Part shown: positions 25,471 through 60,270 of the stretch, one piece after another | Layout: each line of letters begins with the position of its first letter | Position numbering within the stretch: position 1 is the first letter of the stretch | Origin: Candidatus Poribacteria bacterium | GTDB lineage: Bacteria; Poribacteria; WGA-4E; WGA-3G | Direction: 5' to 3' | DNA: 64,000 nucleotides | NCBI GenBank assembly: GCA_965198235.1 | Contig: OZ240248.1 | Location: 3,136,001 to 3,200,000 of the forward strand | Notes under the pieces: model-generated | Databases searched by the model: none | The model's input: the letters and a program-made list of their open reading frames with translations, nothing else | Told to the model about the DNA's origin: nothing | Made by a program: the position numbers and the translations under genes

Positions 25471-25615
25471 CAGTGGAAATGTGCTTGTGTACTTGTACAT
25501 TTTAAGTTGATAAATTTTTAACATCTGTGGTATGATAAAATCAGAGTTGAGATTGTGCAATGCTGCTTACCGAGCAACCTCGTACCATCCTCCCTGCTAC
25601 ACGGAATAAATAGCC

Positions 25616-27571
25616 ATGGTAACATATGAACAATGGAACAAAGCAATCATCTCCTACTTTTTTGAAGATTGTGAGCCAAATCAAATTGTCTTTTTGCAGA
25701 CCAATGCTGAAATGCTTTCTGAAATCGCTGAACTTTCTGATTTTGACGTAGCGGATGCTACTGAGAGTTTAAAAATGGCTGTGCGGCATGAAGTTGTCCG
25801 CAGCGACGCAGTTAACTTTCAGGGAATCAAGCCAACTTTGTGGAAAGACTATTCCAAAGAAGAGCCGCCTCAAGTTGCTTTTCTCGCTTTCACAGTGCTC
25901 GCCGCGAGTTTGATGGATTCTGAAAGTTCCGTTGGCTCTCAGAATTATTATATTCGTCTCAATGAGTTATTGTTTGGGCAGTCGGTTAAAGGGGCACCAC
26001 AAGGTTTTAAGCACCCGCAATTTGAAGGGTTTTGGAAACATATCCGAAGATGGTTACGCGATCAGCATGGTGTTGTACTTTATTTAACCGAAGGTTCATC
26101 AAACCGAAGGTACGTTTGGTACCCGATTTCGCAATGCTTGATAAGCAAGCGGGATCGACGGCTCATTTATCGCTTTTTTCGTGACCATGAATTAGTGCCA
26201 TTTTCAAGAATCCCGGATAACCAACTTGAAAGAGATCTTCGTGCTTGGTTAAGACAATCAGCCGGACCTACCAAAATTGAGCGTTATTTTTCCAACGAAT
26301 CCTATAAGCAGTCTATCCTTAGTCAAGTCAAATCACTGCTGGAACACTGGAATGGTGAAATTCCACCTGAGCCTCCTCACGGTGAGAAACAGACAACTGC
26401 CTCAGTCAACGTTGAAATCCGATTTGATCCGTTTGACAATGATGTAGAAATTCGTTACTGGTTCCCCACGCGTGGAAGAGACAAAACGAGATGTAAGACT
26501 AACTCTTTGGGGATTCAGGACCTACAACCATCGCATTTAAAAAAGTGGTTTCGGCCAGTCACTGATAACGAAGGGACATTTTGGAATTGGAATTTATTGA
26601 ATTGCTTGCAATTGCAAACACATGAAACCAATTCGATAATTTACACACTGGGTCTTTCCGATGTCTGGGTTTTTCGAGAAGATTCTGAACGGGACGACGG
26701 TTGGCTGTCTCAGCGAAACATGCAGCGGTATGAAGATCACTTAATAATATTTCGTAAGAGGCTTGTTAGTCAGGTCATAGATTGTTTAAGGCAAACTTGT
26801 GAACAAGAATTTGAAGAACCCAGTCCTATCTATGTTGATGGGAAAGAAAATGATTGGCTGTACCTGCGAGCTGAACCTACCAAATTTGTATCTTTTTCCG
26901 AACAAAATCTCTGGAAACTTTCTGTCGTTTCGAGTGAGCGGATAGGTCTTATTGGTGGGCTATCGGTCAAAAATCAAGATGGTCGCAAGGCTTACCTTGA
27001 TTTCTGTCTTCCCAGTGTTTTCGTCCCTGATTCTGGGCTTCCTGATGAAGAGTTTTTGTGGATTGATGAACAAGCGTTTGCAGTTGACGCAGATCGGGTT
27101 GTTAAGTTAGATGGTGTACTGGATCCGGGTTCTCATTTGCTTACCTATGGGAGGCAAACAAGAGAATTACAGGTTATATCTCCCGAATGCTCGTTGGAGC
27201 ATCATAACCGAACCTTAATCATCTCTATATTTGAAGATCAAGCATCAATGCCTACTTATACCATAAAAGAGATTCCGGAAATTTCAAAGCGATCTGGGAT
27301 CTGGCTCACTGGCGCGCAGATTTTCGGAGACATCCCACCACCTCCACCATCAGACAAATTTTCCAAAGTTTCTGCGCATATCATCTCGTCAGTTGTGAAA
27401 GTTGCAATCGATTTCAAGAAAGGAAACACCTCCGTGCCAGAGTGGTTTGACGAAGCGATTGAATACTTGGAACAGAATGTAGGTCTCCAAACCATGGTTA
27501 AGAAAAAGTTGAACCTTTATCACGAAACGGCTCTGTCCTACGTAGAACTCCGCAAACAAATAGGTAAGTAG
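25616..27571 (+). CDS. hypothetical defence-island protein (Druantia DruF/DruH-N-like, inferred)
   Basis: 651 aa, first gene of an AT-rich coupled operon upstream of a DUF1998 helicase. Confidence 0.6.
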   Translation: MVTYEQWNKAIISYFFEDCEPNQIVFLQTNAEMLSEIAELSDFDVADATESLKMAVRHEVVRSDAVNFQGIKPTLWKDYSKEEPPQVAFLAFTVLAASLMDSESSVGSQNYYIRLNELLFGQSVKGAPQGFKHPQFEGFWKHIRRWLRDQHGVVLYLTEGSSNRRYVWYPISQCLISKRDRRLIYRFFRDHELVPFSRIPDNQLERDLRAWLRQSAGPTKIERYFSNESYKQSILSQVKSLLEHWNGEIPPEPPHGEKQTTASVNVEIRFDPFDNDVEIRYWFPTRGRDKTRCKTNSLGIQDLQPSHLKKWFRPVTDNEGTFWNWNLLNCLQLQTHETNSIIYTLGLSDVWVFREDSERDDGWLSQRNMQRYEDHLIIFRKRLVSQVIDCLRQTCEQEFEEPSPIYVDGKENDWLYLRAEPTKFVSFSEQNLWKLSVVSSERIGLIGGLSVKNQDGRKAYLDFCLPSVFVPDSGLPDEEFLWIDEQAFAVDADRVVKLDGVLDPGSHLLTYGRQTRELQVISPECSLEHHNRTLIISIFEDQASMPTYTIKEIPEISKRSGIWLTGAQIFGDIPPPPPSDKFSKVSAHIISSVVKVAIDFKKGNTSVPEWFDEAIEYLEQNVGLQTMVKKKLNLYHETALSYVELRKQIGK

Positions 27572-27573
27572 AT

Positions 27574-29613
27574 ATGGAAGGGAAACCTTATCCAGAAGCG
27601 AAGCGAAGAATTTTAATAGAGTTAAGTACAGCAGATTTTATCAAATTCTTGAAAGAAGTAACAGATCAGAAAGGCAAACTGTTTATACAAAATCAATTGC
27701 TTCAACGTAGGGTCCCCGGATTTCGAGACGGGCGTGCTCCATTCACACGAACGGTTCCGCAGTTGATTACTAAACTAAAAAGCGAACGGGAGCTTACGAA
27801 TTCCGATTCTGCTATCTGGAATTCGTTCGCGGATGTTTGGAGGTACTGGGTTAAATCGCACCAAGAATTGGATAATACCCTAACTGCCTTCGATAATAGA
27901 GCAGATTTTGATGAGAATCACAATTGTATAACGCCACTGAATAGCGAATTAGATATTGAGTGCTTCAAGTTTTTGTTAGAAGCAAGTCACAACACCTTGA
28001 TTCATCGGGAAATGATCAGACGCTTTTATGAGTATGGTTACTTCAATGAAGATGAACGGATCCAAAATTTAATCAACCAAGTGCCCTCACGCGAAGGAAT
28101 TGAACTGAGAGAACAATTAGCAGTGCTCCCTGGTAAGGTCGATGAATTGTTTCAGACTGTTGACAGATTATCTCAAAATGTTGCAGACCTTAATTCGCGA
28201 GTTCCTGCTATGAGATCTGCCGATGAATTGGAGCAAGAACTTATTGAACAAATGGCAAAGGAACGTCACTACTTTGATACTGAACTTCAAAAGCTTAAGC
28301 AAACAATCATAGACAAGCACAGCCAGTTTGATGATCGAATTTCCAGTATAATGTCGCATTCTACCCAATTAGTTGATTTGGTGAATTGGATTAGTTCGCT
28401 TGGATCAAGGTTCTCTGAACTTCAGGGATCAATCAATTCATTTGAAAACAAACTTACTGAAATTCAATCCCTTAATGAACAGGAAATTAGTCAATTGGTA
28501 GACCAGAGAATGCAAAATGGGATCAAGCAGTTAGATTCGAGAATCCTGGGGGAGATTGGAACTCTGAAAGCGAAACTTAATGCAGCAGAGAACACAATTT
28601 CCGAAATTAAATCGAAAATGACTGATGAACCGAGAATCATCGCTCAAGCTCTGAAACTCGGGGAATGGTACAAGGCTGGATTAAAGGAAAAAACAGAACG
28701 CTACACAGACGAAAATGAATATTTGGACGATTTTCGCCATTATCTACGGAGATTTGGTATAACGAATTTTGAAGATGAAGAAATGGCGGTGGCTATTCAT
28801 ATAGCGTTGAAAGCCTTTCCTGCGGTTGAGATTGCCGATCCTCGAATAATTAAAGTTTGGGAATTAATGTGCGATAACCACTTCTACGACACAACAATCA
28901 ATGTAGAAATGGGATGGCTTGGATTACAAGATTGGTTTCCAGAGCTTTTTGCCGAAGAGTGCTTTGGAATAAGACTAGAACGAGTTGAGTTGGAAGCTTC
29001 AATTGAGAAAATGCTTGAAATCGGAGATATGCCATGGGTAATATGTTTTTGCGATTGTGACAGATCATTTCCGGAGACTTACTTGCCAGGTTTTCTGGAT
29101 TGGATTAGCGGCTTTTGTCATAGTAGTGTTAGAATCCTGCTAATACGTTGTTCTGGAACCAATCGTTGCAAGACAAATGAGAATTTTTATGAACGAGTAG
29201 CCCGTTTGCCCAAACCTAAGTTCCGAGAACCTATTGAGTCGCGGGACCTGATATCCTCAGGAATCCCCCTTACGTTGTCTGAATGGGAATCTTGGTGCCA
29301 ACCGAATCTTGACATTGACTCCGAATACAAAATATACTATGATTTTCTGGAAGAACTCAGATCGACTGTTGAAAATAGGAATATGCAAGTTCCAATAGAA
29401 CTTCTTCGGGAAATTCGACATTATCTTCGACTTTCACATAACATTCTGGCAAAGACCAGCGCGCTTGATTGGGCGTTGACTATACGTTTGTTACCGTGGA
29501 TTGGAAACCGACGTAGGTTAATTGATGCAGTACTAAATCTAGTTAATGATGGAAACCAAGAATTACCTCATTTCCGAGAGGGATTACAAGTAGCAAGCGA
29601 GACAGATGAATGA
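27574..29613 (+). CDS. coiled-coil protein with a degenerate McrB-like AAA+ C-terminal domain
   Basis: Heptad-rich region (about aa 175-350); INVEMGW, CFCDCDRSFPETY and ALDWALTIRLLPWI echo McrB-type motifs; no Walker A. Confidence 0.55.
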   Translation: MEGKPYPEAKRRILIELSTADFIKFLKEVTDQKGKLFIQNQLLQRRVPGFRDGRAPFTRTVPQLITKLKSERELTNSDSAIWNSFADVWRYWVKSHQELDNTLTAFDNRADFDENHNCITPLNSELDIECFKFLLEASHNTLIHREMIRRFYEYGYFNEDERIQNLINQVPSREGIELREQLAVLPGKVDELFQTVDRLSQNVADLNSRVPAMRSADELEQELIEQMAKERHYFDTELQKLKQTIIDKHSQFDDRISSIMSHSTQLVDLVNWISSLGSRFSELQGSINSFENKLTEIQSLNEQEISQLVDQRMQNGIKQLDSRILGEIGTLKAKLNAAENTISEIKSKMTDEPRIIAQALKLGEWYKAGLKEKTERYTDENEYLDDFRHYLRRFGITNFEDEEMAVAIHIALKAFPAVEIADPRIIKVWELMCDNHFYDTTINVEMGWLGLQDWFPELFAEECFGIRLERVELEASIEKMLEIGDMPWVICFCDCDRSFPETYLPGFLDWISGFCHSSVRILLIRCSGTNRCKTNENFYERVARLPKPKFREPIESRDLISSGIPLTLSEWESWCQPNLDIDSEYKIYYDFLEELRSTVENRNMQVPIELLREIRHYLRLSHNILAKTSALDWALTIRLLPWIGNRRRLIDAVLNLVNDGNQELPHFREGLQVASETDE

Positions 29614-30497
29614 ACCCAGCGGAAACTAATGTTTTTGATAAGTTGCTTTATTACCTATCGCATGTAGGAGGACTAAGTTGGGAGAATTTCAAGCAAAAAA
29701 CCAAACTGCTGACAAGAGATGATTTAGATTTTAAAGCGTCCACTTATCTTTTATCTCTTGCCCGTTTGGGACATCTTGATTTTGACCCGATGAAGTTATC
29801 CTATGTCACTATTGCTCCCGCTGTTCTTGTGAAAACAACGGTTGAAAGCCGATATGTTCTTGCAGGTAGTCGGATACCTAATTTTCTTGAGGAGGTTAAA
29901 AAGTGTGTTTCTGAAAATGGTGGGGAATTTCGGTCAATCCCGGAAAAATATGCTCCGATGACTATTGTACTGAGCAAATTGACGGAAAAAACATTTTCAG
30001 ATCTTGAAAGCTTGGATGTCCACATTAGTTGGGATTTTTCGGCGAAACTATCACAAATACTACCCCGCCCAAGGCTCATGAGCATCCATCCTGAACTATC
30101 TTTTGTCGCTAATTTGGAGAAAAAGTTTAATCCTATTACCCTGGATTATGAATCAGTAGGTCATGGAGAGAGCACGGACGGACTTTACCAAATTTCACAA
30201 CATGGTCCCGACGTTTACGCCTTGAGATCTGGCAACCATCAACGAAAAGTTCCACGGGATTGGGCAGAATGGAATGTGCTTGCTGGAACTCCCGGGCTAA
30301 TTTATTATGAGGAAAAATCTCAAAAATGGCGAGTTAGAAGCAAATTGCTCGTACCACTAATTGTAGACCGGTGTGCGACGCTCTGTTCAGGCTATCCGTC
30401 AAAGTTAACAGGTAATTTTGTTTGCTATTCTGACGTACCAATTGACATCGCGAAGCGATTAACGAAATCACTTTATCAAAACTGGGAGGTAATTTGA
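29610..30497 (+). CDS. hypothetical defence-island protein (DruH-C/DruG-like, inferred)
   Basis: 295 aa, ATGA-coupled to the previous gene; LARLGHLD..IAPAVL and RCATLCSGYP motifs. Confidence 0.6.
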   Translation: MNPAETNVFDKLLYYLSHVGGLSWENFKQKTKLLTRDDLDFKASTYLLSLARLGHLDFDPMKLSYVTIAPAVLVKTTVESRYVLAGSRIPNFLEEVKKCVSENGGEFRSIPEKYAPMTIVLSKLTEKTFSDLESLDVHISWDFSAKLSQILPRPRLMSIHPELSFVANLEKKFNPITLDYESVGHGESTDGLYQISQHGPDVYALRSGNHQRKVPRDWAEWNVLAGTPGLIYYEEKSQKWRVRSKLLVPLIVDRCATLCSGYPSKLTGNFVCYSDVPIDIAKRLTKSLYQNWEVI

Positions 30498-33400
30498 TGT
30501 CTGATACTATTAAAACTGATCCATTTAAAACACATAAACTACTTTGTGATGACTATATCCGTTACATACAGACGATATTAGGTTTTAATAATGTGTGCTT
30601 AGAGAAAGAGCGGAAAAAGTTGTTAGAGAAAAATGGTTTGCTTTTCCAACCACCACGTTTTGAGCCGATTTTTCCTTATCCTTCTTCCGGCAAAACGCTA
30701 TCCGATTTGTGTCATAATTCACAATTACCGTCCGAACTTGGAGAATTTCTCGCAGCAGGAGGGAACGAGGGGCTTGCACCAATAGATCGCACACTCTATG
30801 AACATCAGGCAGAAGCAATTAAAGCATCAGTTGTTAATAGTGAGGATGTTGTTGTTACAACCGGCACGGGTTCTGGAAAGACGGAATGCTTTTTACTGCC
30901 AATTTTTAGTTATCTTATCAAGGAGTCCCAAAACTGGAACGTTTACGGAGAAAGGAATCCAGAGCATCCATGGTGGCGAAATCAACAGAGGCGTGTTCCG
31001 CAGCGTGAAGGCGAAAACCGTCCAGCTGCTACCCGAGCGTTGATTTTGTATCCGCTTAATGCCCTTGTAGAAGACCAATTGATGAGGCTTCGGCGCGCTT
31101 GCGATAGTCCGAAGGCACGTCAATGGCTCACTGACAACAGAGGTGATAACCGATTCTACTTCGGACGATACACTGGATTGACTCCAGTGCCCGGTCAAGA
31201 AAAAAGTGAAAAAAATACAAATCCAAACATCCGAAGACTCCAAAACCAACTTGAGAAACTACAGAAGCAAGCTGAAAAAGCTAAGGAAAACGAAGAAACG
31301 CGTTATTTCTTCCCCTCCACCGATCCTGACGCGTCTGAAATGTGGTCTCGTTGGGACATGCAAGATCACCCACCTGATATTTTAATCACAAACTATTCAA
31401 TGCTGAACATTATGCTCACCCGCGATTTGGAACAACCAATCTTTGAGAAAACCAAGGAATGGCTAAAAGAATCAGATAGTGTTTTCCATCTCGTTGTTGA
31501 TGAACTGCATTCCTACCGAGGTACAGCAGGTTCAGAGGTTGCCTATCTACTTCGGACACTGTTTAACCGTCTCAACCTTGATCCTAATTCGCCGAAATTA
31601 CGGATCATTGCGTCAAGTGCCTCCCTTGAAGGAAATGAAGGTCGCGAGTACCTTCGCCAATTTTTTGCACGAGAGAAAAACTTCAAAATTATTGGTTCGC
31701 CTCCGCATCCTGATAAAAGTGCTGAACTTCAGGAATGTCTCAAATACTCAGAACATTTTGAAACATTTAATTCAAGTGGCGATTCTACTCAGTTAGACAG
31801 GGTTTCAAAAGATATAGTCAAATCTGCGGTAGCACAACTTTGCAACTGTAATGGTAAACTGTACGCCTCAACGATTGAAGATATGCATCAGGCTGCAAAC
31901 AAAGTAGCTTCAACACCAATTTCCGAAGATGCGATTCATGGACTAATTCGCTACCTAATCCAACAGAAGGAGGGTCCAAATACAAAGAGGGCGTTGTTGC
32001 CGCTGCGTGTGCATTATTTCTTTAAAAACTTTGAAGGATTATGGGCATGTAGCAATCCAAATTGTCAAGATGGAAACGATGAAACGCCCATTGGAAAACT
32101 GTTTGCGAATCGACGTGTCCTATGTGATGAGTGTGGTTCACGAGTCATGGAATTGTTAACCTGTGAAACGTGCGGGGACATCTTTCTTGGGGGATACAAA
32201 CAAAAGATATCGGAAGATGCGCCAGGTTGGTATCTCAGCGGTGATTATCAAGATTTATCGGGTCTGCCTGAAAAGGGAATTAGAGATCGGAGTTATGATA
32301 CCTATGCCGTTTTTTGGCAGAAGACGCAAACGCCGGTTCAAAAGAATCCTTGGACAAAAAACGGTATTAAAAGACAGTGGGCACCTGCTGTGTTTTCACA
32401 TTCTGATGGGGCACTTATTCCGGATGCCTCGTCTAATGCTAACGGTTATTACTACAAAATTAATGATTCAGACGATTGGTGCTCGGAAATTCCTAAGTTT
32501 TGTCCTAATTGTGGTGATTTACGGGATTACAAATCGGAAAAGATCCTTGTCAATGGAAAAGAACAAGCACCTTCCACGCTTCGAACCAGTAGAACAGGTT
32601 TGCAAAAAATTATTCAAATTTTCACCCAAACCTTACAGACGACTATCAAAGAACAGTTAGATCGGAAAACGATTATCTTCTCTGATAGTCGGCAAGATGC
32701 AGCGAAATATGCTGTGGGTATCCAGTGGTCGCATTACCAGGACATGATTCGGCTTATCGCTGTCGAAGCAATGAAAAGGCAGTCGGAAGATAAGGATCTG
32801 GCAATCGTTCGTAATTTTCAAAATCCACGACCTGTTTTTAGAGAGTCAATTCGGCGGCTCCATAGAAGATTTCCCGATCAACGGGAATTGTTTGATTCAA
32901 TTGAAGATGCTTTTTATGATGAAGAACCTTTGAAGTCTGATGATGAAAATCAACTTAGGGCACTTGGAGGCAATTATCCGTTCACGGCTCTTCAGGATGA
33001 CTGTTTTAATGCATTTATCAACCTCGGTATGAACCCTGGAGGCTATGGTAACAAAGTGGAAATCTCTCGGGAAAAGGGTAGACTGGGTACATGGATTGAG
33101 CATAAATGGGAGGAAGTCCTCAAGTGGGATGAACATCCAGTATCAATACGTCCGCCACATCTGCTTGAAAGTCATCAAAAACAACTTGTGACAAACATCC
33201 AAGCCGAATTAAAAAGAATGATAACGGAACAGCTTCTGTTCGCACGAAGAGATATGGGATTAGAGGGGCTTGGACTCGCTTGGTGTGAACCCTATACTGA
33301 TTCGGACAAATGGCAAATTAATGAAATTGATGTTTCTGAAATGATGTCCGCCGTTACCCGAATCCTTGCTGAACGCAGATATACAAGGATTTACTATCCC

Positions 33401-35914
33401 TATACCGACCAAATGAAAAATCCTGCGTTTCTCCGAGACTATGTCAGGAAATCAGCGGAACAAATTGGGTATCCTGAGGATGAACTCATCAGAGCAGTTG
33501 AGGAACAGCAAGAATCATCAGAGAGTTTTGAAAATTGTCTCGTTCTTGTTGAAAAACTCAATCTTCGTCTTTCCCAAGGAGACACGATCTTTCGGTGTTC
33601 CAAATGCCGGCGTAAACACCTTTACAAGGCAGGAGGAATTTGCACAAATACAGTGTGCTTGGGAAAATTGGAGGAAATTGATAAGAAGAAAGACTCGTTT
33701 GAAAAATATGGTGGTTACTACGCCATTCAAGCTGATGCAGATAGACCTGAGATTCAACCTTACCGTTTTCACTGTGAAGAATTGACGGCACAAACAGATT
33801 CAGAAGAACGTCCTACCCGGCAACGGTGGTTTCAAAATGTAATACTTGATGATGAAAATCAGAAAACGGACGAGATTGACCTACTTAGCGTGACAACAAC
33901 GATGGAAGCGGGTGTTGATATTGGTGCGCTCTCAATAGTTTTGTTGGGTAACGTTCCCCCTCAACGTTTCAATTATCAACAGCGCGTTGGGCGCGCTGGA
34001 CGGCGTGGAGAACCTGTTGCATCCTCTTTGACACTTTGCCGCCTTAGAACCCATGATGATCACTACTTTTCCCATACAGATGAAATTACAAATACCCCAA
34101 CACCCTCACCGTATCTGGACCTTCGGAGTCCGGACATTATCAGAAGGGTACTGGCGAAGGAAGTCTTGTTCCATGCTTTCCCGAAACAGTCCATTGAAAC
34201 TTTAAACGAGAGAAACGTCCACGGCGAATTTGGAAAAGTCTCAGATTGGTCTACTAATTGGGAAAAACTATCCGAATGGATCAAAACGCAACAAGGACAG
34301 ATTCAGCGAATCGTACGGGTGCTTACCGCACAAACGGAATTAGACCTCCAAAACGGGACAGATGAACTGATAAATTGGGTTACCAACGAACTTGAAACTG
34401 ATATTAACGATTGCATCGAGAATCATGAACATAAGGACGATGATTTAAGCCAAGTCCTTGCGGAATCCGGCTTGCTACCAATGTTTGGATTTCCAACAGG
34501 TGTGCGTTTATTGTATCATCAACAACCCCGTATTTCCAATTGGCCTCCAACATCAGGTGTCGTTGACCGCGACATTGAACTTGCGATCAGCCAATTTGCT
34601 CCCGGTTCAGAAACCATCAAGGATAAAAAAATCCATACCTCAATAGGTATTGTATCCTACAAACGAGAGCAAAACCAAGTCGTACCTGACAAAGGTATCG
34701 CGCATAAAAAAACGATAGGTTTCTGTGAAAATTGCAAAGCGGTTTTTGAGAATGCTGATAAAGATGATAATGTCTGTGAAATTTGTGGATATGAAAAATA
34801 TAAGCCAATTCAAGGGATTGAGCCAAAGGGATTTTTGACTAATTTCATGCCTGATGATGCCCATGAATCTTTCAATTGGACACCCCGTTCAACATATTCT
34901 CGCCTACCTTCGGACACACTTACAGACCTAAAACAGGAACGCAATTTCTTATGGGAAACAGCAGAAAAATTGAAACTGCTTTCAATTAACACGAACAGCG
35001 ATCGGTTGTTTACTCTGCAAAAAGTACGAAATAGCGAAGCACTTGTATCTCCTGAAGTCTGCCATGAATTGAATGTAGAACGCGATTTGGCAGAAGAAAA
35101 ATACGTAGCCGCACTTTACGCTGCTAAGACTACAGACGTTTTGTTAATCCAGGTTAACGAAATTCCAGCAGGTATTCTGCAAAATCAAGGTGAAGAATAC
35201 TGGCGAGCTGCGCTTTACTCTTTTGGGTTCCTGTTCCGACAATTTGTGGCAAGTCAACTGGATGTATCCCCTGACGAGCTGCGAGTTGAGATTCGACCCA
35301 TGCCTGTGGAAGAGGAAGGAACATACAAACAACAAATCTTCATCGCCGATGCTTTAGCAAATGGAGCAGGATACTGCCGTCATATTGGTGAGACTGATTC
35401 GGAAGGAAAACCATTCCGATTGGTTAAGTATTTACGTAATATGGTTGAGACTAAGAATGATTTTGCAAAAGGGTTGATTGCACACGGAAATGATTGCGAT
35501 TCTTCTTGTTACAACAAAGGTTGTATGCGTGATTACTCCAATATGCCTTACCATCCGTTTCTGGATTGGAGGTTAGGGCTTGATGTAGCACAGCTTTGCT
35601 TACAAGAAAACTATCAGATGGATCTCCAAAAAGACTATTGGTCTCCACTCGTAGACTTGGTTGAAAAGAACCTCAAAGAACTTCATCGAAGTCTTGACCG
35701 TAAGGATTATGACGGTATGCCTGTTTTTGAGGATCAAGAGCGGGCTTTTATTTTACATCATCCGTTGGCTGCAATCGGAGATTGGGCAGGGGCACACATT
35801 GCCTCTGTAATTGTTGATCTTGAGGACGCTGGATTTAAAGTAGGATATATTAACATTTTTGATGCTATTCGTAGGGTGAGTGTCGTGATGAATACACTGA
35901 ATGAAAAACGATAA
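30494..35914 (+). CDS. large DEAD/DEAH helicase with zinc fingers and C-terminal DUF1998 (DruE-like)
   Basis: TGTGSGKTE, LYPLNALVEDQ, DELH, SAS, TTTMEAGVDIG, QRVGRAGRR, DALANGAGY...CDSSCY..C; 1806 aa. Confidence 0.9.
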   Translation: MMSDTIKTDPFKTHKLLCDDYIRYIQTILGFNNVCLEKERKKLLEKNGLLFQPPRFEPIFPYPSSGKTLSDLCHNSQLPSELGEFLAAGGNEGLAPIDRTLYEHQAEAIKASVVNSEDVVVTTGTGSGKTECFLLPIFSYLIKESQNWNVYGERNPEHPWWRNQQRRVPQREGENRPAATRALILYPLNALVEDQLMRLRRACDSPKARQWLTDNRGDNRFYFGRYTGLTPVPGQEKSEKNTNPNIRRLQNQLEKLQKQAEKAKENEETRYFFPSTDPDASEMWSRWDMQDHPPDILITNYSMLNIMLTRDLEQPIFEKTKEWLKESDSVFHLVVDELHSYRGTAGSEVAYLLRTLFNRLNLDPNSPKLRIIASSASLEGNEGREYLRQFFAREKNFKIIGSPPHPDKSAELQECLKYSEHFETFNSSGDSTQLDRVSKDIVKSAVAQLCNCNGKLYASTIEDMHQAANKVASTPISEDAIHGLIRYLIQQKEGPNTKRALLPLRVHYFFKNFEGLWACSNPNCQDGNDETPIGKLFANRRVLCDECGSRVMELLTCETCGDIFLGGYKQKISEDAPGWYLSGDYQDLSGLPEKGIRDRSYDTYAVFWQKTQTPVQKNPWTKNGIKRQWAPAVFSHSDGALIPDASSNANGYYYKINDSDDWCSEIPKFCPNCGDLRDYKSEKILVNGKEQAPSTLRTSRTGLQKIIQIFTQTLQTTIKEQLDRKTIIFSDSRQDAAKYAVGIQWSHYQDMIRLIAVEAMKRQSEDKDLAIVRNFQNPRPVFRESIRRLHRRFPDQRELFDSIEDAFYDEEPLKSDDENQLRALGGNYPFTALQDDCFNAFINLGMNPGGYGNKVEISREKGRLGTWIEHKWEEVLKWDEHPVSIRPPHLLESHQKQLVTNIQAELKRMITEQLLFARRDMGLEGLGLAWCEPYTDSDKWQINEIDVSEMMSAVTRILAERRYTRIYYPYTDQMKNPAFLRDYVRKSAEQIGYPEDELIRAVEEQQESSESFENCLVLVEKLNLRLSQGDTIFRCSKCRRKHLYKAGGICTNTVCLGKLEEIDKKKDSFEKYGGYYAIQADADRPEIQPYRFHCEELTAQTDSEERPTRQRWFQNVILDDENQKTDEIDLLSVTTTMEAGVDIGALSIVLLGNVPPQRFNYQQRVGRAGRRGEPVASSLTLCRLRTHDDHYFSHTDEITNTPTPSPYLDLRSPDIIRRVLAKEVLFHAFPKQSIETLNERNVHGEFGKVSDWSTNWEKLSEWIKTQQGQIQRIVRVLTAQTELDLQNGTDELINWVTNELETDINDCIENHEHKDDDLSQVLAESGLLPMFGFPTGVRLLYHQQPRISNWPPTSGVVDRDIELAISQFAPGSETIKDKKIHTSIGIVSYKREQNQVVPDKGIAHKKTIGFCENCKAVFENADKDDNVCEICGYEKYKPIQGIEPKGFLTNFMPDDAHESFNWTPRSTYSRLPSDTLTDLKQERNFLWETAEKLKLLSINTNSDRLFTLQKVRNSEALVSPEVCHELNVERDLAEEKYVAALYAAKTTDVLLIQVNEIPAGILQNQGEEYWRAALYSFGFLFRQFVASQLDVSPDELRVEIRPMPVEEEGTYKQQIFIADALANGAGYCRHIGETDSEGKPFRLVKYLRNMVETKNDFAKGLIAHGNDCDSSCYNKGCMRDYSNMPYHPFLDWRLGLDVAQLCLQENYQMDLQKDYWSPLVDLVEKNLKELHRSLDRKDYDGMPVFEDQERAFILHHPLAAIGDWAGAHIASVIVDLEDAGFKVGYINIFDAIRRVSVVMNTLNEKR

Positions 35915-37034
35915 TATGAAACTTCAACCACTCCCAAAACTTCAACCTATCACAAGATTGTCTCCAACACTCTTTTCAACTTTAAAACAGTGTCAGTTGA
36001 GGGCAGGATTAAGCCAAGCAAGAGCACAACGGACGACCAGAAGTTCAACAGCAGCACTGTTAGGGACGATCGCGCACCGCGTCTTAGAAAGGGCAGGTTC
36101 AATCAATGGAGATGAAGAGGATTTACGAATCCAAGCAGGAGCAATATGGGATAAGGCTGTAGAGCAAATGGAGGAAGATTTACAGACTTCACCCCTTGAC
36201 AGGAGTTTGTTGCCAATTAAAAGGTGGAAAAAATACTTCCTGTTGCAACAGCGGACCGTTCGCCGATACGAAGATATTGTATCAAGTCAGGGAAGGTCTG
36301 AAACGCAGGTTGTCGCGAGTGAACGTAAATTCGATAGTGTTAAAAATGGGTTTACTGGTAAACCTGATCTTATTCTCCGTAGAGAAATTGGTCTTGTGAT
36401 TATTGACTATAAGAGTGGCGAACTCCCTGATGATTCGGAAAGTCGGGAAGAGAAGATTGAGTTGTGGCAACACCAGATTTTGTTCTATGCCACAATTGTT
36501 AAGGAAGAATTTGGGGAATGGCCAGTGGAAGGGGAAATTAGATTACTGAACACAGAAGTAATCCCTATCCAAATTGACCGACAAAAAGCGGTCGCACTTG
36601 TAGAGGAAGTTCAGGCTTTAAAAGGAAATTATAACGCGAAAATTGCTGCAGGAGTGCCACTTTCAGAATTGGCACAATATTCTGTCGACAATTGTAGATT
36701 CTGCGAATTTAAAGGAGTTTGCGGCACATTCTGGAAAGAAAATCCACAGCCTGTTCCGGGAACCGACAAGTATGGATATTTGAGCGGTCGAGTCTTAAGG
36801 CTTACAATTGGTCAAAATAACAGACACTCTATAGTAATTGCCTCCGAAAAATTGGGCGAAACCTCACAGGAATGGCAAATTTCAGGTTTGTCAACTGAAC
36901 AATTTGGGAATTTAGAAGAACTGGGGCAAGGAACTCTTGTTCGATTGATTAATTTTAAAATAGAATCTGATGGATCCTACCGGGCAAAACCGACTCAAGA
37001 TTCTGTAATTTGGGAAGTTCCAGAGAGTTTCTGA
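35901..37034 (+). CDS. PD-(D/E)XK nuclease, Cas4/AddB-like with predicted 4Fe-4S cluster
   Basis: LSPT...QC, GTIAH, GKPDL, IIDYKSG, Q..FYA, CRFCEFKGVC; start 35901 or 35916. Confidence 0.85.
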   Translation: MKNDNMKLQPLPKLQPITRLSPTLFSTLKQCQLRAGLSQARAQRTTRSSTAALLGTIAHRVLERAGSINGDEEDLRIQAGAIWDKAVEQMEEDLQTSPLDRSLLPIKRWKKYFLLQQRTVRRYEDIVSSQGRSETQVVASERKFDSVKNGFTGKPDLILRREIGLVIIDYKSGELPDDSESREEKIELWQHQILFYATIVKEEFGEWPVEGEIRLLNTEVIPIQIDRQKAVALVEEVQALKGNYNAKIAAGVPLSELAQYSVDNCRFCEFKGVCGTFWKENPQPVPGTDKYGYLSGRVLRLTIGQNNRHSIVIASEKLGETSQEWQISGLSTEQFGNLEELGQGTLVRLINFKIESDGSYRAKPTQDSVIWEVPESF

Positions 37035-39970: not shown

Positions 39971-42900
39971 CTACTTCCGCACGGCGATTTTTCCGACCTT
40001 TTGTTTCCGGACATCCCCTTTGCGAGCGGTAAATTTGTAGAGGTAAACCCCATTCGCAAGCGGTTCGCCGTCACCGTCGTAACCATCATAGTAGAATTCG
40101 TTGAAAGAGACGGACGCATCGAGTGTGTCAATGGCGATAATGCGGCGACCTGTAATCGTGTAGATTTTCAGACTGACCTCGTCTGCACTTTCCGTGAGGT
40201 AATAAGCGAAATGCGTGCCGCTTCCCGGTACAAATGGATTCGGGAAGTTGGCAATATTTTTGATTTCAAATTCCCCAGCTACAGTCGCAGTGCGATCGGT
40301 GTCTGAGATATTGCCGTTTGCGTCCTGTGCCTGTAACCGGATGCGGTATTCGCCGGGTTCCAAGACAGGGGTATAGGTGATCAGGAGTAAGTTATTGTTC
40401 GTAGGAGATGCCGCAATTACATATTCGTCTTGCGACACGTTTTCACCGTTTTTGGTGAGGATTATATTCTCCGGACGTGAATCAATCCCGTTTGCATCCT
40501 CAATCTGTGCCGAGATGGTTGGTGTATCAGAGACATAGTCGCCATCTACGAAACCTTGGTGGTCAAAGGTTAACGCAAGTGCGGGTGGACTTGTGTCACT
40601 GTGTGAGAGCAGAGCAAATGTCCCGGGCAGTTTTACCTCCGCAGAGATAAGGTCTCCACTCGTTGTTGCCTCGCCGACCCGAATCCAATTTCCGTTGTCA
40701 TTGTCCCGCCGATAGATATGGGCATCGCCGTTCCTTTCTTTTTGGAAAGTGGCGGTTACTGTCAGTGTAGGAGGGGTTTGCAACCCCGATTCCTCCAAGT
40801 CAAATTGATAGGCGAGTGCCGATGTTGAGAGTGCCGCTGTAATATCGGGCTGATTTGTAATGGTAAGGGCTTCTTCGGCATAAGTCAGAACGGTACTCGT
40901 TTGCACACTGCCGGACGGAACAGCGATACGAAAGATACCGTCTGGACTCTGAATCGGTTGATCGAGCGTTTCGGGTGTAAGAATAATACGGTTGCCCGAA
41001 AACCGCCGCGATGTCCAGTTATTCCTTTCACGTTCTTCAATGATACTTCCCTGTGGGTGTTCGGCGGATGGTGGATCTACGTAGACGGTGACGAGATATT
41101 CACCAGGGGGTGGTTGCCAAGGAACATGGACGACAACTTGGCTACCGGGTAGAACTTCGGGAAGTATTTGGAGATCCCCGATTGGAGTAGCGTTCTGGAG
41201 TTCTTGGAGTATCGCCGCAACGCTGACGTTTGTATTGGTGGGGGTATCGGTGTTACCGCTCAACGCTTTTACAAAGAACTGAACGGGTACGTTTCGAGCT
41301 GTTTGGTTCTCTCGGTTTCGGACTTGTGCTGAGAGTGTAAACGGAGGTGTTGTGTCCCATGTAAGGGTTTGATCCAAAACGACGAGGTCAATGTCAATTT
41401 CATCATATCCTACATCGTAGGTGACTAACTCTGTGTGAAATGTTCGCCCACTTTTAACTTTGATCTCGGCGTAATAATCGATAATTTCTCCGTAGGGATA
41501 TCCCGGAATAGGTCGCTCGCTTCTGTAGGTGGTGCCGGTATGCGGCACAACAGGAATCGTGAAAAATTCGTGACCATCCAGACTCCAAAACAGCGTCATT
41601 TCGTCAATAGCATTTTCGTCGGCGACTTCTACGTAAAGGTGCGCCGGTTGGTTCGGTGCAACAGGAAACGGAACAAGGCGTACGTTATTGACATATCGAG
41701 ATAGGATGTTGTAGGTTGCATGCCCCAAAGCCTCTTCATCTGCATTCCATGCGTAAATCTGGACAGCACCGACATCAAAGTCAGGATCAGCAGAGACTCG
41801 TATTTCTGTGCTAACCTGTCCATTGACGATAGAAACGATTTCCGGTTTCAGTTTTATGTTTTTTGAGATTGCGGTTTCAGTTGTCGGAACAACGGTAATT
41901 TCGGCATCTCCACTAAAGTTCCGATCGGGTAGCGTTCCAGAAACGGAGAGAAGGGTATCTCCTTGAGAAGCGTTTCGCCCTTGCTCGGCACTGATGTCGG
42001 CTGTGACTTGTATTTTGTTGCTCGGTATTTTCAAGTTTGTCGCTGGATCCCCGAAAAGCGTGAAGACCTCGGCGAGATCGAGGAATCTGGGTGTGTTGAT
42101 GAGGAACTGGGTTTTTGCCTGCGCAAGGATGGCACCGAAGTTGTACATTTCTTTGTTGAAGATAACGTCAAAAATTTCGGCGTTCAGATAATAGTCGCCA
42201 TCAAGCAGTCCGATACTGGTTGCGCCGATGACAGCGACGGCACCGCCATTTTCGGAGCGGAGGAGTTCTTCAGCGAGACTGTTTTTGTTCCCGTCAAACG
42301 AGCCGGTATAGCAGGTCATGCTGATAACCAAGGGGAGTTGTGAAATATTGGTTAAGTTCTGTTCCGGGTCTGCAAAGTCGAGCATCCGACTGGAAGCCCA
42401 TCTACCGCCACCGCCGTGTCCGATATAGTTGACGATACTGGCTCCGTCGTTAAAGCCGTCGATAACCCGTCTACCGATAGGTGTGAGGATATTGTCGTCG
42501 CTCAAAGTCGGTTCGTCCGTATGGGGCGCGTAGATACGTTGGGTTTCGTATCTGCCAATCAGCTGATTGTGGGAAATGAGTTGGGTGGTTTGCCAGTGGA
42601 ATCTCAAATCTGATCCTGCGAGCATGAGGAACCGCTTATGCCAAGAACCGACTGGCGCAGATGTCTCGTAGTTGATGGTGCGTTCGATAAATATGCGGAG
42701 ATCCACGCGATTATTAGCCGGCATTCTACCGATGAGCATGTCTGGAAAACTATCTTCTCCTCGAAATGTAACGAATTGGTGGTCCGATGCACCCGATCCG
42801 TAGCCTGGGATTTGCACCTGGATCGTTGGGACAAAATTGGGTTTATTTTTAATGTCGATATTTGTATCGCCTATGAGAAAGACATAGGTCGGAGCAGGAG

Positions 42901-45127: not shown

Positions 45128-45404
45128 TTTTTTAATTATTGGGTTTCTGCTCCGATTGGTCTTACAGCCCAATCGGGTTTTCGATGCATTTTTGAGGCAT
45201 CGGTGGTGATTAAAGGGTTTAAAGGCTTACCGTCAATAATATATGTGCCTTAAGGCTAATGTGTGTATTTTATGGTTTTAGTTCCGATTATAGTCTTTGT
45301 TGTGGGTCGTCTCATTTTTCTTTAAGTAATGTGAGGGGTATAGAGAACCGAGAGGTAAATGCTCCTGACTTTAGACATATAGGATTGCTTGTTCGGCGCG
45401 CCTG

Positions 45405-59962: not shown

Positions 59963-60017
59963 GGGGATATGATAGCAGATTTTGAGGTGTAAATCAAGGG
60001 AATTTGGGATGGAGGGA

Positions 60018-60270
60018 CACACATGTCGCCCCTCTGGGGCTTGAGTGTATGGGGGCGCTTTTCTATAAACATATCGCCCCTACGGGGCTGGAGACGTAGT
60101 GGTACAAACCTGTGAAAATCCACGCAATCTGTGTAATCCGCGATTCAGACGAAAAATGACCATGTCGCCCCTCTGGGGCTTTGTTTTTTCAGGAGATGCG
60201 TTTCTACACAGATGGGGTTTCTCCGCTGGGGCTGAGGGAGTTCGGGGTTGGAAACCCCTCCCACAGGTCG
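60018..60270 (-). repeat. REP array (reverse orientation)
   Basis: catgtcgcccctctggggc x2, ctataaacatatcgcccctacggggc, aatccgcgattcaga, ttcggggttggaaacccctcccac. Confidence 0.7.

What the first reader, a model, noticed from the sequence alone, without database searches (positions are those of the whole stretch)
25616..37034. Five-gene Druantia-like operon with a Cas4-like nuclease and a dead McrB-type AAA+ protein: candidate new defence system
Seen: five co-oriented, translationally coupled genes (2-bp gap, ATGA and TTGATG overlaps) that are visibly more AT-rich than the flanks, inserted between a GNAT gene and an ankyrin gene. The core is a 1806-aa SF2 helicase with several CxxC fingers and a DUF1998 tail. 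Known: this size and architecture match Druantia DruE, whose described types are DruABCDE, DruMFGE and DruHE. Inference: no methylase is present, ORF1 and ORF3 look like a DruH/DruF-type partner in two pieces, and both a coiled-coil/AAA-like ORF2 and an overlapping Fe-S PD-(D/E)XK nuclease are added. I do not recognise this combination as a named subtype.
Basis: partly seen in the sequence, partly recalled or inferred. Interest (0 to 1): 0.85.

Follow-up and report, generated by a model that had tools for sequence, protein, structure and literature searches.

The report
Druantia type IV defence operon variant
This is a real, intact five-gene anti-phage operon of the already catalogued Druantia type IV kind, in a sponge-symbiont-like (Poribacteria) genome, that carries one extra gene for a dead ATPase with a long coiled coil, which makes it a lineage-specific variant and not a new system.

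Summary
The five co-oriented, tightly coupled genes exist as described. At GC 0.420 the operon is lower than all 2572 same-size windows sampled from the genome.

All five hit PADLOC Druantia models:
- ORF1: DruF4
- ORF3: DruL4
- ORF4: DruE4 (1676 bits, full length)
- ORF5: DruK
- ORF2: the N-half of type I DruC

So four genes are PADLOC's Druantia type IV (Payne 2021), not an unnamed system.

ORF2 folds as a helical domain, a coiled coil and an AAA+ domain with no Walker A. MoxR-type ATPases match best (Z 14.3); McrB scores Z 7.9. This fits the "inactivated CnuB" proteins that Bell 2025 reports for Druantia I/II.

In 78 related loci:
- ORF2 lies between DruF and DruL in 21 of 21 Poribacteria-group loci and in 0 of 41 others.
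- Two other loci carry a distant copy elsewhere in the locus.
- DruK is optional: 8 of 21 Poribacteria-group loci, 17 of 46 others.
- Outside Poribacteria, DruK always comes with a C5 methylase (15 of 15).
- This genome has no C5 methylase.

A complex model supports ORF2-DruL binding.

Verdict: new variant of a known kind, moderate interest.

The parts
25507..25536 (+). Promoter-like site upstream of ORF1 (TTGATA, 18 nt, TATGAT, TG before the second hexamer)
   Evidence: matches 10 of 12 consensus positions. This is a consensus match only. The region gave 31 such sites against 21.0 +/- 5.6 in shuffles, so it is weak evidence.
25616..27571 (+). ORF1, DruF4 family (651 aa), function unknown
   Evidence: PADLOC DruF4 PDLC00052, 3.4e-39, residues 2-520. 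It also matches the N-terminal 8-294 of the long DruF2 profile. No Pfam or NCBIfam family. A homologue lies next to DruE in 21 of 21 Poribacteria-group loci and 41 of 41 other loci that have at least 6 kb upstream.
27574..29613 (+). ORF2, DruC/DruG-like protein (679 aa): helical N-domain (1-170), coiled coil (173-348), degenerate AAA+ domain with lid (about 357-678)
   Evidence: DruC1 PDLC00006, 4.7e-21, over residues 8-351; model pLDDT 86.1. MoxR-like 2r44 Z 14.3 (rmsd 3.7, 251 aligned, residues 378-663), RavA Z 12.0, McrB 6hz4_A Z 7.9 (rmsd 3.8, 147 aligned); no GK[ST] anywhere; the P-loop position reads ADPR (421-424); present between DruF and DruL in 21 of 21 Poribacteria-group loci.
29610..30497 (+). 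ORF3, DruL4 family (295 aa): N-terminal winged helix, remainder of unassigned fold
   Evidence: DruL4 PDLC00057, 3.5e-18, and the C-part (708-859) of DruF2 PDLC00023, 3.4e-05; model pLDDT 89.9, pTM 0.87; best Z 6.3, winged-helix matches within the first ~100 residues (e.g. 5-70) only; no Foldseek match at E <= 1e-3; predicted to bind the AAA+ domain of ORF2.
30494..35914 (+). ORF4, DruE4 YprA-family SF2 helicase (1806 aa from the TTG; the likely start is ATG 30497)
   Evidence: DruE4 PDLC00051, E = 0, 1676.4 bits, residues 7-1804 on profile positions 3-1825 of 1829. DruE2 scores 1554.6, DruE1 681.2 and DruE3 453.9 bits. GSGKT 126, DELH 336, QQRVGRAGR 1162, six CxxC; solved chains 9wae_A 2e-177, 9tu7_Y (type III DruE) 1.2e-53, YprA 6znp 4.8e-10.
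35901..37034 (+). ORF5, DruK, a PD-(D/E)XK nuclease with a Cas4/RecB-type four-cysteine cluster motif (377 aa)
   Evidence: DruK PDLC00060, 8.2e-29. PDDEXK_1, 85.4 bits (cut-off 22); in 22 aligned DruK sequences C31, H59, E141, D156, K171, Q192, Y196, C265, C268 and C274 are invariant, and D169 is conserved in at least 90%. TIGR00372 cas4 scores only 28.5 bits against a cut-off of 65.

Best explanation
What it is. The region is an intact anti-phage or anti-plasmid operon of the Druantia family. Its nearest catalogued form is PADLOC's type IV (DruF4, DruL4, DruE4, with the optional nuclease DruK). It carries one extra gene, a DruC/DruG-like protein, inserted between druF and druL. This layout is a variant conserved in Poribacteria.

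Likely mechanism (inferred):
- DruE4 is the motor. It is an ATP-driven YprA-type SF2 helicase that loads on exposed single-stranded or forked invader DNA and unwinds it, as shown for type III DruE.
- DruK is a RecB/Cas4-like iron-sulfur nuclease that degrades the strand DruE exposes. It is an accessory effector, not an obligatory part.
- The ORF2 protein cannot hydrolyse nucleotides. Its dead AAA+ domain serves as a docking platform for DruL, and its coiled coil and N-domain act as a scaffold that, together with DruF, links sensing to DruE.
- No methylase marks self DNA here. Discrimination would therefore rest on DNA structure, not on modification.
For: Identity:
- All five proteins hit Druantia models. 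DruE4 matches over its full length at 1676 bits.
- Type IV is defined in PMC8565338 (passages). It is treated as one of four DruE clades, 18% of 566 loci, in preprint 10.64898/2026.05.13.724313 (passages).

Intact catalytic motifs:
- DruE carries its helicase motifs.
- DruK keeps every residue that is invariant across 22 homologues.

ORF2:
- The model has pLDDT 86.1. Its AAA+ domain matches MoxR-type 2r44 at Z 14.3, rmsd 3.7, 251 aligned.
- No GK[ST] occurs in the window's ORF2. No G-K-[ST] appears at the aligned P-loop positions across the 45 informative rows of alignment A1, which includes type I DruC proteins.
- Bell et al. [quoted passage not shown]

Association:
- ORF2 lies between DruF and DruL in 21 of 21 Poribacteria-group loci with enough upstream sequence.
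- Distant copies sit beside DruE-linked genes in L076 (1e-24) and L067 (7.5e-14). The L067 protein hits both DruC1 (7.1e-18) and DruG2 (1.3e-12).

Binding:
- Complex prediction for ORF2 352-679 with DruL scored 0.65; the best of 3 controls scored 0.00. That mark was reached by 58 of 80 solved complexes and 2 of 110 mismatched pairs.
- The three runs agree in at least 77% of contacts and the partner's pLDDT is at least 83. My own alignments were used, so those counts hold only roughly.
- The interface includes ORF2 residues 496-502. These fall in the family's conserved [ND]-R-S-x-P-E-x-Y motif (S498 in 37 of 45 rows, E501 in 40, Y503 in 38). It also includes DruL positions 85, 87, 249-251 and 254, at or next to the invariant G86, R88, P249 and R254.

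Helicase mechanism:
- This is taken from type III work (abstracts, passages). There DruE unwinds 3'->5' from a 3' overhang, acts on forked or ssDNA intermediates, and gives direct, non-abortive defence.
Against: - No experiment exists for type IV, for DruK or for this variant. Every mechanistic step is an inference from homology.
- DruK is absent from 13 of 21 Poribacteria-group loci and 29 of 46 others, so the nuclease step cannot be essential to the family.
- Outside Poribacteria, DruK always sits with a C5 methylase (15 of 15). That hints at modification-based self-protection, which this genome lacks. DruK here could therefore be regulated differently, or be harmful or inactive.
- The roles of DruF and DruL are unknown. 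DruL matched only a generic winged helix at Z 6.3, which lies in the range the tool calls common.
- McrB is a poorer structural match than MoxR.
- The complex score is a model's confidence, not a measurement.
- Whether the C-terminus of DruE4 is an inactivated Vsr domain, as reported for types I and II, was not tested.
- The locus counts use my own crude ORF calls and come from the best 80 of 284 relatives. Related loci are not independent observations.
Confidence: 0.72

Rival explanations
1. It is a plain PADLOC type IV Druantia, and ORF2 is a passenger gene that happens to sit in the operon without taking part in defence.
For: ORF2-like genes are absent from the operon in 0 of 41 non-Poribacteria loci, so DruF-DruL-DruE can clearly exist without it. 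Only its N-terminal half hits a PADLOC model.
Against: It lies in the same slot in 21 of 21 Poribacteria-group loci whose DruE identity spans 52-87%. It is coupled to its neighbours by a 2-nt gap and an ATGA overlap. Its homologues are DruC proteins of type I Druantia: 7 of 9 distant relatives tested hit DruC1 at 1e-44 to 1e-64. Distant copies also sit in DruE loci of two other phyla. The complex model scored 0.65 against 0.00 for the controls.
Confidence: 0.1
2. The locus is a housekeeping helicase-nuclease module, for example for DNA repair like MrfA/YprA with MrfB, and not an immune system.
For: In 6 Poribacteria-group loci (L002, L007, L008, L013, L016, L017) the operon has the same flanking genes as in the window (NDK/GNAT upstream and/or ankyrin/C25 peptidase downstream). 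That looks like vertical inheritance at a fixed site. No tRNA, flanking repeats or integrase mark a mobile element. YprA (6znp) is a distant relative (4.8e-10).
Against: The helicase matches DruE4 over its full length at 1676 bits, whereas NCBIfam helicase families all fall far below their cut-offs. Bell 2025 places DruE in the defence branch of the YprA family. The operon has the lowest GC of any same-size window in the genome. Several relatives carry broken genes: DruE is split in L018 and L020, ORF2 in L002 and DruK in L009. That pattern is typical of dispensable defence genes. Distribution across phyla is patchy.
Confidence: 0.07
3. The operon is a methylase-less relic whose DruK nuclease is silenced or non-functional, so the locus no longer defends.
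For: Outside Poribacteria, 15 of 15 DruK loci also carry a C5 methylase. This genome has none (the assembly is 96.3% complete). DruK has been lost or split in many Poribacteria-group loci.
Against: All five reading frames are intact, and every invariant DruK residue and all DruE helicase motifs are retained. Seven other Poribacteria-group loci keep an intact DruK without a methylase. The close coupling of the genes is preserved.
Confidence: 0.08

Closest known systems
Druantia type IV (PADLOC; Payne et al. 2021, PMC8565338)
   Same: DruE4, DruF4 and DruL4 all hit in the order F-L-E, and there is no DruM. The nuclease hits the PADLOC model DruK.
   Different: An extra DruC/DruG-like gene sits between druF and druL. 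The definition seen in the paper's main text says type IV lacks DruG. DruK is not mentioned in the passages I saw.
Druantia type II (DruM-DruF-DruG-DruE)
   Same: DruE2 models score almost as high as DruE4 (1554.6 against 1676.4 bits). DruF2 models hit ORF1, and ORF3 hits the C-terminal part of the long DruF2 profiles. ORF2 belongs to a family whose L067 member hits DruG2.
   Different: There is no methylase in the operon or, for C5 methylases, anywhere in the genome. ORF2 itself does not reach any DruG model at E <= 0.01. DruL and DruK are added.
Druantia type I (DruABCDE)
   Same: ORF2 hits DruC1 (4.7e-21). Its distant full-length relatives are DruC proteins.
   Different: No ORF hits DruA, DruB or DruD. 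DruE1 scores only 681 bits, and in two stretches.
'Type IV CoCoNuT' reading of Druantia I/II (Bell et al. 2025 preprint, PMC12458937)
   Same: A YprA-type DruE is paired with a coiled-coil protein carrying an inactivated AAA+/GTPase-like domain.
   Different: The passages I saw name types I and II, not type IV or this gene order. In my fold searches McrB (Z 7.9) is a weaker match than MoxR (Z 14.3). No McrC-like partner was recognised in DruL. The paper's supplements were not available to me.
Druantia type III (DruH-DruE), the only mechanistically studied type
   Same: The signature helicase is homologous (9tu7_Y 1.2e-53; DruE3 454 bits). It is the source of the unwinding model.
   Different: There is no DruH here. 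Type III DruE carries its own PLD-type nuclease domains (Bell 2025), whereas here a separate PD-(D/E)XK nuclease gene follows DruE.
Cas4 / AddB / RecB-family iron-sulfur nucleases
   Same: The fold family is PDDEXK_1 at 85.4 bits. The D...D-x-K and Q-x3-Y motifs and the C...C-x2-C-x5-C pattern are present. That these motifs define the Cas4/AddB type is recalled knowledge.
   Different: It falls below the Cas4 equivalog cut-off (28.5 against 65 bits). There is no CRISPR context. It has an extra C-terminal region of about 100 residues.

Membership tests
Druantia (any type) | A large DruE signature helicase of the YprA/DUF1998 family | tested here: met
   DruE4, E = 0, 1676.4 bits, covering profile positions 3-1825 of 1829. 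DEAD, Helicase_C and MZB domains; helicase motifs intact.
Druantia type IV (PADLOC) | DruF and DruL encoded beside DruE | tested here: met
   DruF4 3.4e-39 for ORF1 and DruL4 3.5e-18 for ORF3; same strand, gene order F-(ORF2)-L-E.
Druantia type IV (PADLOC) | Lacks DruM and DruG (as worded in PMC8565338) | tested here: inconclusive
   DruM is absent: none in the operon, and no PF00145 match in the genome. ORF2 hits no DruG model at E <= 0.01 but does hit DruC1. A relative in L067 hits both DruC1 and DruG2, so a DruC/G-type gene is present.
Druantia type II | DruM cytosine methylase in the operon | tested here: not met
   No methylase among the five ORFs. 0 of 21 Poribacteria-group loci have one. 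No PF00145 match in the 96.3%-complete genome.
Druantia type I | DruA, DruB and DruD accompany DruC and DruE | tested here: not met
   none of the five ORFs hits a DruA, DruB or DruD model at E <= 0.01. Only DruC1 is hit, by the N-half of ORF2.
Type IV CoCoNuT (Bell 2025) | An inactivated McrB-like (CnuB) GTPase with an extended coiled coil, encoded with a YprA-like helicase | tested here: inconclusive
   The coiled coil (173-348) and an AAA+ fold without a Walker A motif are shown. McrB 6hz4_A aligns at Z 7.9, rmsd 3.8, 147 residues, but MoxR-type 2r44 aligns at Z 14.3. Direct homology to CnuB was not tested.
Type IV CoCoNuT / Druantia I-II DruE | An inactivated Vsr-like domain at the C-terminus of DruE | not tested
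Pfam reported no Vsr family at E <= 0.01, which does not decide the question.
McrB GTPase | A functional P-loop (Walker A) and the GTPase signature motifs | tested here: not met
   There is no GK[ST] in ORF2. The loop after the first strand reads ADPR, and the family consensus there also has no G-K-[ST] run.
Cas4 (TIGR00372 equivalog) | A score above the curated cut-off | tested here: not met
   28.5 bits against a cut-off of 65. It is a PD-(D/E)XK / RecB-like nuclease (PDDEXK_1 85.4 bits), not a Cas4 proper.
RecB/Cas4-like iron-sulfur nuclease (fold class) | Catalytic D, D/E-x-K and Q-x3-Y motifs plus four cluster cysteines | tested here: met
   D156, D169, K171, Q192, Y196, C31, C265, C268 and C274 are all present and invariant or nearly so in 22 sequences. 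Metal binding itself cannot be tested here.

The most novel reading that the evidence does not exclude
The Poribacteria operons could be a distinct, so far undescribed Druantia subtype that bridges types I, II and IV. In this subtype a catalytically dead AAA+ coiled-coil protein docks the DruL adaptor through its degenerate nucleotide pocket. That sub-complex, and not DNA methylation, would then license the DruK nuclease. This would explain why DruK is always paired with a C5 methylase elsewhere (15 of 15 loci) but never in this lineage (0 of 8, plus the window).
Probability: 0.3. Interest if true: 0.65.

Novelty: new variant of a known kind. Interest (0 to 1): 0.45.

Why it matters
Only type III Druantia has a worked-out mechanism. 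Types I, II and IV make up about half of known loci (14%, 22% and 18% of 566), and their accessory genes are labelled "unknown function".

This locus offers a compact, intact, methylase-free example in which three points can be tested directly:
- what a dead AAA+/coiled-coil subunit does in a helicase-based defence system;
- whether DruL is its partner, for which a specific interface is predicted;
- whether the optional DruK nuclease needs a methylase to be safe for the host.

It also shows that the PADLOC categories I, II and IV share parts (DruC/DruG, and DruF/DruL) in combinations that the present naming does not cover. For sponge-symbiont biology, it marks a conserved defence locus in Poribacteria.

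Tried and rejected
- ORF2 is not hidden inside the longer DruF proteins of other phyla. Profile-profile comparison of the ORF2 family (A1) with 18 long DruF proteins (A3) gave probability 0.6 and E 0.098. DruL (A2) against A3 gave probability 0.09.
- The ~700-aa ORFs upstream of druF in other phyla, which I suspected to be ORF2 analogues, are mostly C5 methylases: 13 of the 16 upstream ORFs tested. One is a PADLOC Orf5/HEC-06 protein, one had no hit and one had only weak helicase-like hits.
- DruL as a McrC-like partner. Foldseek found nothing at E <= 1e-3, and VIA-wide found only winged-helix matches on about the first 100 residues (Z up to 6.3). No McrC appeared. This does not exclude it, because residues beyond about 120 were barely tested.
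- Sequence searches of solved structures with ORF1 and ORF3 found nothing useful: one hit at E 0.16, and none. The ORF2 family profile found only coiled-coil look-alikes. ORF5 found nothing below E 0.087.
- The protein atlas for ORF1 gave only unnamed clusters (0.91-0.92) and a YjiT_N lead at 0.88, below the tool's trust level. Pfam gave no family for ORF1.
- Mobile-element boundaries: no tRNA in the window and no flanking direct repeats around the operon.
- The first profile script timed out. I re-ran it without DruE.
- No paper in the library names PDB entry 9wae.
- "DruK" occurs in no Druantia paper in the library search. "Druantia type IV" occurs in 2 papers.


Full report
**1. The observation**

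The window holds five + strand ORFs at exactly the stated coordinates:

| ORF | Coordinates | Length |
|---|---|---|
| ORF1 | 25616-27571 | 651 aa |
| ORF2 | 27574-29613 | 679 aa |
| ORF3 | 29610-30497 | 295 aa |
| ORF4 | 30494-35914 | 1806 aa |
| ORF5 | 35901-37034 | 377 aa |

- ORF1/ORF2: a 2-nt gap.
- ORF2/ORF3: an ATGA overlap.
- ORF3/ORF4: a TTGATG junction. GGAGG lies 7-8 nt before the ATG at 30497, so that ATG is the more likely DruE start.
- ORF4/ORF5: a 14-nt overlap.

The operon GC is 0.420. The genome mean is 0.481 (sd 0.0126). No other window of the same length reaches so low: 2572 windows were sampled and the minimum was 0.4218.

The flanks carry weak GNAT and weak ankyrin signatures. 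Nucleoside diphosphate kinase lies further upstream and a 1733-aa C25 peptidase lies downstream.

**2. What the genes are**

All five proteins hit Druantia models in PADLOC-DB:

| ORF | Best PADLOC model | Score |
|---|---|---|
| ORF1 | DruF4 | 3.4e-39 |
| ORF2 | DruC1, residues 8-351 only | 4.7e-21 |
| ORF3 | DruL4 | 3.5e-18 |
| ORF4 | DruE4, E = 0, profile positions 3-1825 of 1829 | 1676 bits |
| ORF5 | DruK | 8.2e-29 |

- For ORF4 the other DruE models score 1555 bits (DruE2), 681 (DruE1) and 454 (DruE3).
- ORF1 also matches the first 294 positions of the 1011-position DruF2 profile, and ORF3 matches positions 708-859 of the same profile.
- Pfam adds DEAD, Helicase_C and a borderline MZB/DUF1998 domain to ORF4, and PDDEXK_1 (85.4 bits) to ORF5. 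It gives nothing for ORF1 or ORF3.
- NCBIfam has no family above its cut-off for any of the five. The Cas4 equivalog scores 28.5 bits against a cut-off of 65.

**3. What is already in print**

- Payne et al. 2021 (PMC8565338; passages) defined Druantia type IV as DruE plus DruF, without DruM or DruG but with DruL. They reported 168 instances in 11 phyla.
- A 2026 preprint (10.64898/2026.05.13.724313; passages) finds four DruE clades, types I-IV, covering 14%, 22%, 46% and 18% of 566 loci.
- Bell et al. [quoted passage not shown] - "DruK" occurs in no Druantia paper in the library. "Druantia type IV" occurs in two papers.
- Mechanistic work exists only for type III (abstracts, passages). There DruE unwinds 3'->5' from a 3' overhang and acts on forked or single-stranded intermediates. 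Defence is direct, and type III needs no methylation.
- I could not see any supplements.

**4. ORF2**

*How rare it is.* A full HMMER scan of 1.84 billion representative proteins found only 61 relatives at E <= 1e-3, 14 of them below 1e-30. The distant relatives of about 600-680 aa share mainly the first ~300 residues. Of nine tested in PADLOC:
- seven are full-length DruC1 (1e-44 to 1e-64);
- one hits DruC1 weakly (6e-11);
- one has no hit.

*Its fold.* The AlphaFold model, built on 47 sequences, has pLDDT 86.1. It shows:
- a helical N-domain (1-170);
- a long coiled coil (173-348);
- an alpha/beta domain with a helical lid (about 357-678).

Structural matches to the C-terminal half:

| Target | Z | rmsd | Aligned |
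|---|---|---|---|
| MoxR-type 2r44 (residues 378-663) | 14.3 | 3.7 | 251 |
| RavA | 12.0 | | |
| BchI | 10.1-10.7 | | |
| MCM subunits | 8-10 | | |
| BrxL | 8.5-8.8 | | |
| McrB 6hz4_A | 7.9 | 3.8 | 147 |

Foldseek alone gave MCM, BrxL and ORC at E 3e-4 to 5e-3.

*Why it is dead.* ORF2 has no GK[ST] anywhere. The P-loop position reads ADPR, and none of the 45 informative rows of the family alignment shows a G-K-[ST] run there. "Dead AAA+ with a coiled coil" is therefore right. "McrB-type" is only loosely supported by my searches.

**5. ORF3 (DruL) and its predicted contact with ORF2**

- The DruL model is confident (pLDDT 89.9, pTM 0.87).
- It matches nothing in Foldseek at E <= 1e-3.
- VIA-wide found only winged-helix domains on the first ~100 residues, at Z up to 6.3, a level the tool itself calls common.

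A complex prediction of ORF2 352-679 with DruL passed:
- The score was 0.65, and the best of three controls was 0.00.
- That mark was reached by 58 of 80 solved complexes and 2 of 110 mismatched pairs.
- The runs agree in at least 77% of contacts, and the partner's pLDDT is at least 83.
- My own alignments were used, so these counts hold only roughly.

The ORF2 side of the interface is 445-461, 496-502 and 526-537. It overlaps the family's best-conserved C-terminal motif, [ND]496-R-S-x-P-E-x-Y503, which lies just after the strand where Walker B would sit (S498 in 37 of 45 rows, E501 in 40, Y503 in 38). The DruL side touches residues next to its invariant G86, R88, P249 and R254. This supports binding; it does not prove it.

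**6. ORF5 (DruK)**

In 22 aligned DruK sequences these residues are invariant: C31, H59, E141, D156, K171, Q192, Y196, C265, C268 and C274. D169 is conserved in at least 90%. The window's protein keeps all of them.

That this pattern (D...D-x-K, Q-x3-Y, C...C-x2-C-x5-C) is the RecB/AddB/Cas4 iron-sulfur nuclease pattern is recalled knowledge, not a tool result.

**7. Related loci**

*The sample.* A scan of one genome per species gave 284 DruE relatives. The best 80 were kept, which made 78 loci.
- L001-L023 have 52-87% DruE identity. Twenty-two are titled Poribacteria and one is titled "uncultured bacterium". I call these the Poribacteria group.
- L024-L078 have 33-37% identity and come from many phyla.

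*Method.* I called ORFs crudely (first start after a stop, at least 70 aa). I built profiles from the loci themselves with a 1e-5 threshold.

*Counts in loci with enough flanking sequence* (at least 6 kb upstream for ORF2, methylase, DruF and DruL; at least 1300 nt downstream for DruK):

| Feature | Poribacteria group | Other phyla |
|---|---|---|
| ORF2 in the operon | 21 of 21 | 0 of 41 |
| C5 methylase upstream | 0 of 21 | 20 of 41 |
| DruF | 21 of 21 | 41 of 41 |
| DruL | 21 of 21 | 40 of 41 |
| DruK | 8 of 21 (one split in two) | 17 of 46 |

*Distant ORF2 copies.* A broader profile that includes type I DruC proteins found two more ORF2-like genes in other phyla:
- In L076 (1e-24) it lies on the opposite strand, next to DruL and downstream of DruE.
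- In L067 (7.5e-14) it lies directly after DruK.

The L067 protein hits both DruC1 (7.1e-18) and DruG2 (1.3e-12). DruC of type I and DruG of type II therefore appear to be one family, in line with Bell 2025.

*DruK and the methylase.* With the methylase counted anywhere in the locus, the 38 non-Poribacteria loci with both flanks split as follows (Fisher p = 0.002, not corrected for relatedness):

| | Methylase present | Methylase absent |
|---|---|---|
| DruK present | 15 | 0 |
| DruK absent | 12 | 11 |

In the Poribacteria group, DruK occurs without any methylase. The window's genome (96.3% complete) has no PF00145 match at all and no match to my own DruM profile.

*Synteny.* Six Poribacteria-group loci share the window's flanking genes.

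*Broken genes.* Several relatives carry disrupted genes: DruE is split by an inserted ORF in L018 and L020, ORF2 is in pieces in L002, and DruK is split in L009. Two loci have a short ORF2 of 364-371 aa. A 399-aa representative aligns to ORF2 residues 283-674 only.

**8. How it most likely works**

*Shown by computation:*
- the identity of the genes;
- intact helicase and nuclease motifs;
- an AAA+ fold without a P-loop;
- a predicted ORF2-DruL interface on conserved residues;
- constant linkage of ORF2 with the operon in one lineage;
- the optional status of DruK.

*Taken from the literature:* the DruE helicase mechanism of type III, and the "inactivated CnuB" reading of types I and II.

*Inferred:*
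- DruE4 loads on exposed single-stranded or forked invader DNA and unwinds it.
- DruK, where present, degrades the exposed strand.
- DruF, DruL and the ORF2 protein form the sensing and scaffold part, with the dead AAA+ pocket serving as the DruL dock.
- With no methylase, self is spared by DNA structure and not by modification.

*Weak points:*
- There are no experiments on type IV.
- DruF and most of DruL have unknown folds and roles.
- The DruK-methylase link seen elsewhere may mean that DruK needs a safeguard this genome lacks.

**9. Novelty and verdict**

Four of the five genes belong to a system type named in 2021. The fifth belongs to the DruC/DruG family known from types I and II. The order DruF, DruC/G-like, DruL, DruE, with or without DruK and without a methylase, is not described in the texts I could read. 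In my sample it is confined to the Poribacteria group.

I file it as a new variant of a known kind, with interest about 0.45.

The boldest reading still open is that this is a separate subtype in which the dead-AAA+/DruL sub-complex replaces methylation as the safeguard for DruK.

**10. Context in the window**

- Nothing adjacent to the operon is a PADLOC defence gene.
- A TnpB/Cas12f-like ORF lies at 14296-15507.
- A Type IIG restriction-methyltransferase lies at 56894-60022 on the - strand.
- The window has no tRNA, and there are no flanking repeats around the operon.

Noticed in passing
L024-L078 (loci of other phyla): Among 38 non-Poribacteria loci with both flanks, every DruK-bearing locus also has a C5 cytosine methylase (15 of 15). 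The methylase also occurs in 12 of the 23 DruK-less loci. This suggests the nuclease is normally kept with a self-marking enzyme. The count is not corrected for relatedness.
   Followed up: partly
L018 10001-16502; L020 10001-16285; L002 4991-9106; L009 15414-16508: Several Poribacteria relatives have broken genes. DruE is split in two by an intervening ORF (336 aa on + in L018, 265 aa on - in L020). ORF2 is in three pieces in L002, and DruK in two pieces in L009. The inserted ORFs were not identified.
   Followed up: no
window 14296-15507 (+): A 403-aa ORF hits Cas12f/Cas12u models (1.7e-37). It lies in a local low-GC patch (0.45-0.46) and looks like a TnpB-type transposon nuclease.
   Followed up: no
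window 56894-60022 (-): A 1042-aa ORF hits Type IIG restriction enzyme-methyltransferase models (1e-253). It also lies in a lower-GC patch (0.456). It is a second defence gene, about 20 kb from the operon.
   Followed up: no
window 39971-45172 (-): A 1733-aa protein carries a C25 peptidase domain (7.4e-88), a C25 propeptide and a C-terminal FlgD Ig-like domain. It is conserved downstream of the operon in L002, L007, L013, L016 and L017.
   Followed up: partly
window 46816-48237 (-): A 473-aa ORF hits the RtcR/PspF-type CARF-AAA-HTH regulator model PDLC01995 (2e-112). It may simply be a sigma-54 activator.
   Followed up: no
L041 876-2966 (+); the neighbouring L042 ORF 2501-4591 (+) has the same size and position but was not scanned: Upstream of the DruM-DruF-DruL-DruE-DruK operon of the Chamaesiphon genome L041 lies a 696-aa protein that hits PADLOC Orf5 (5.2e-189) and HEC-06 models. 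It is a neighbouring defence gene.
   Followed up: no
PDB entries 9wae, 9waf, 9wds, 9wdu-9wdy: A solved 1970-residue chain named only 'Helicase' matches DruE4 at 2e-177. No paper in the library names these entries. It may be a type I or II DruE structure that would serve as a template.
   Followed up: partly
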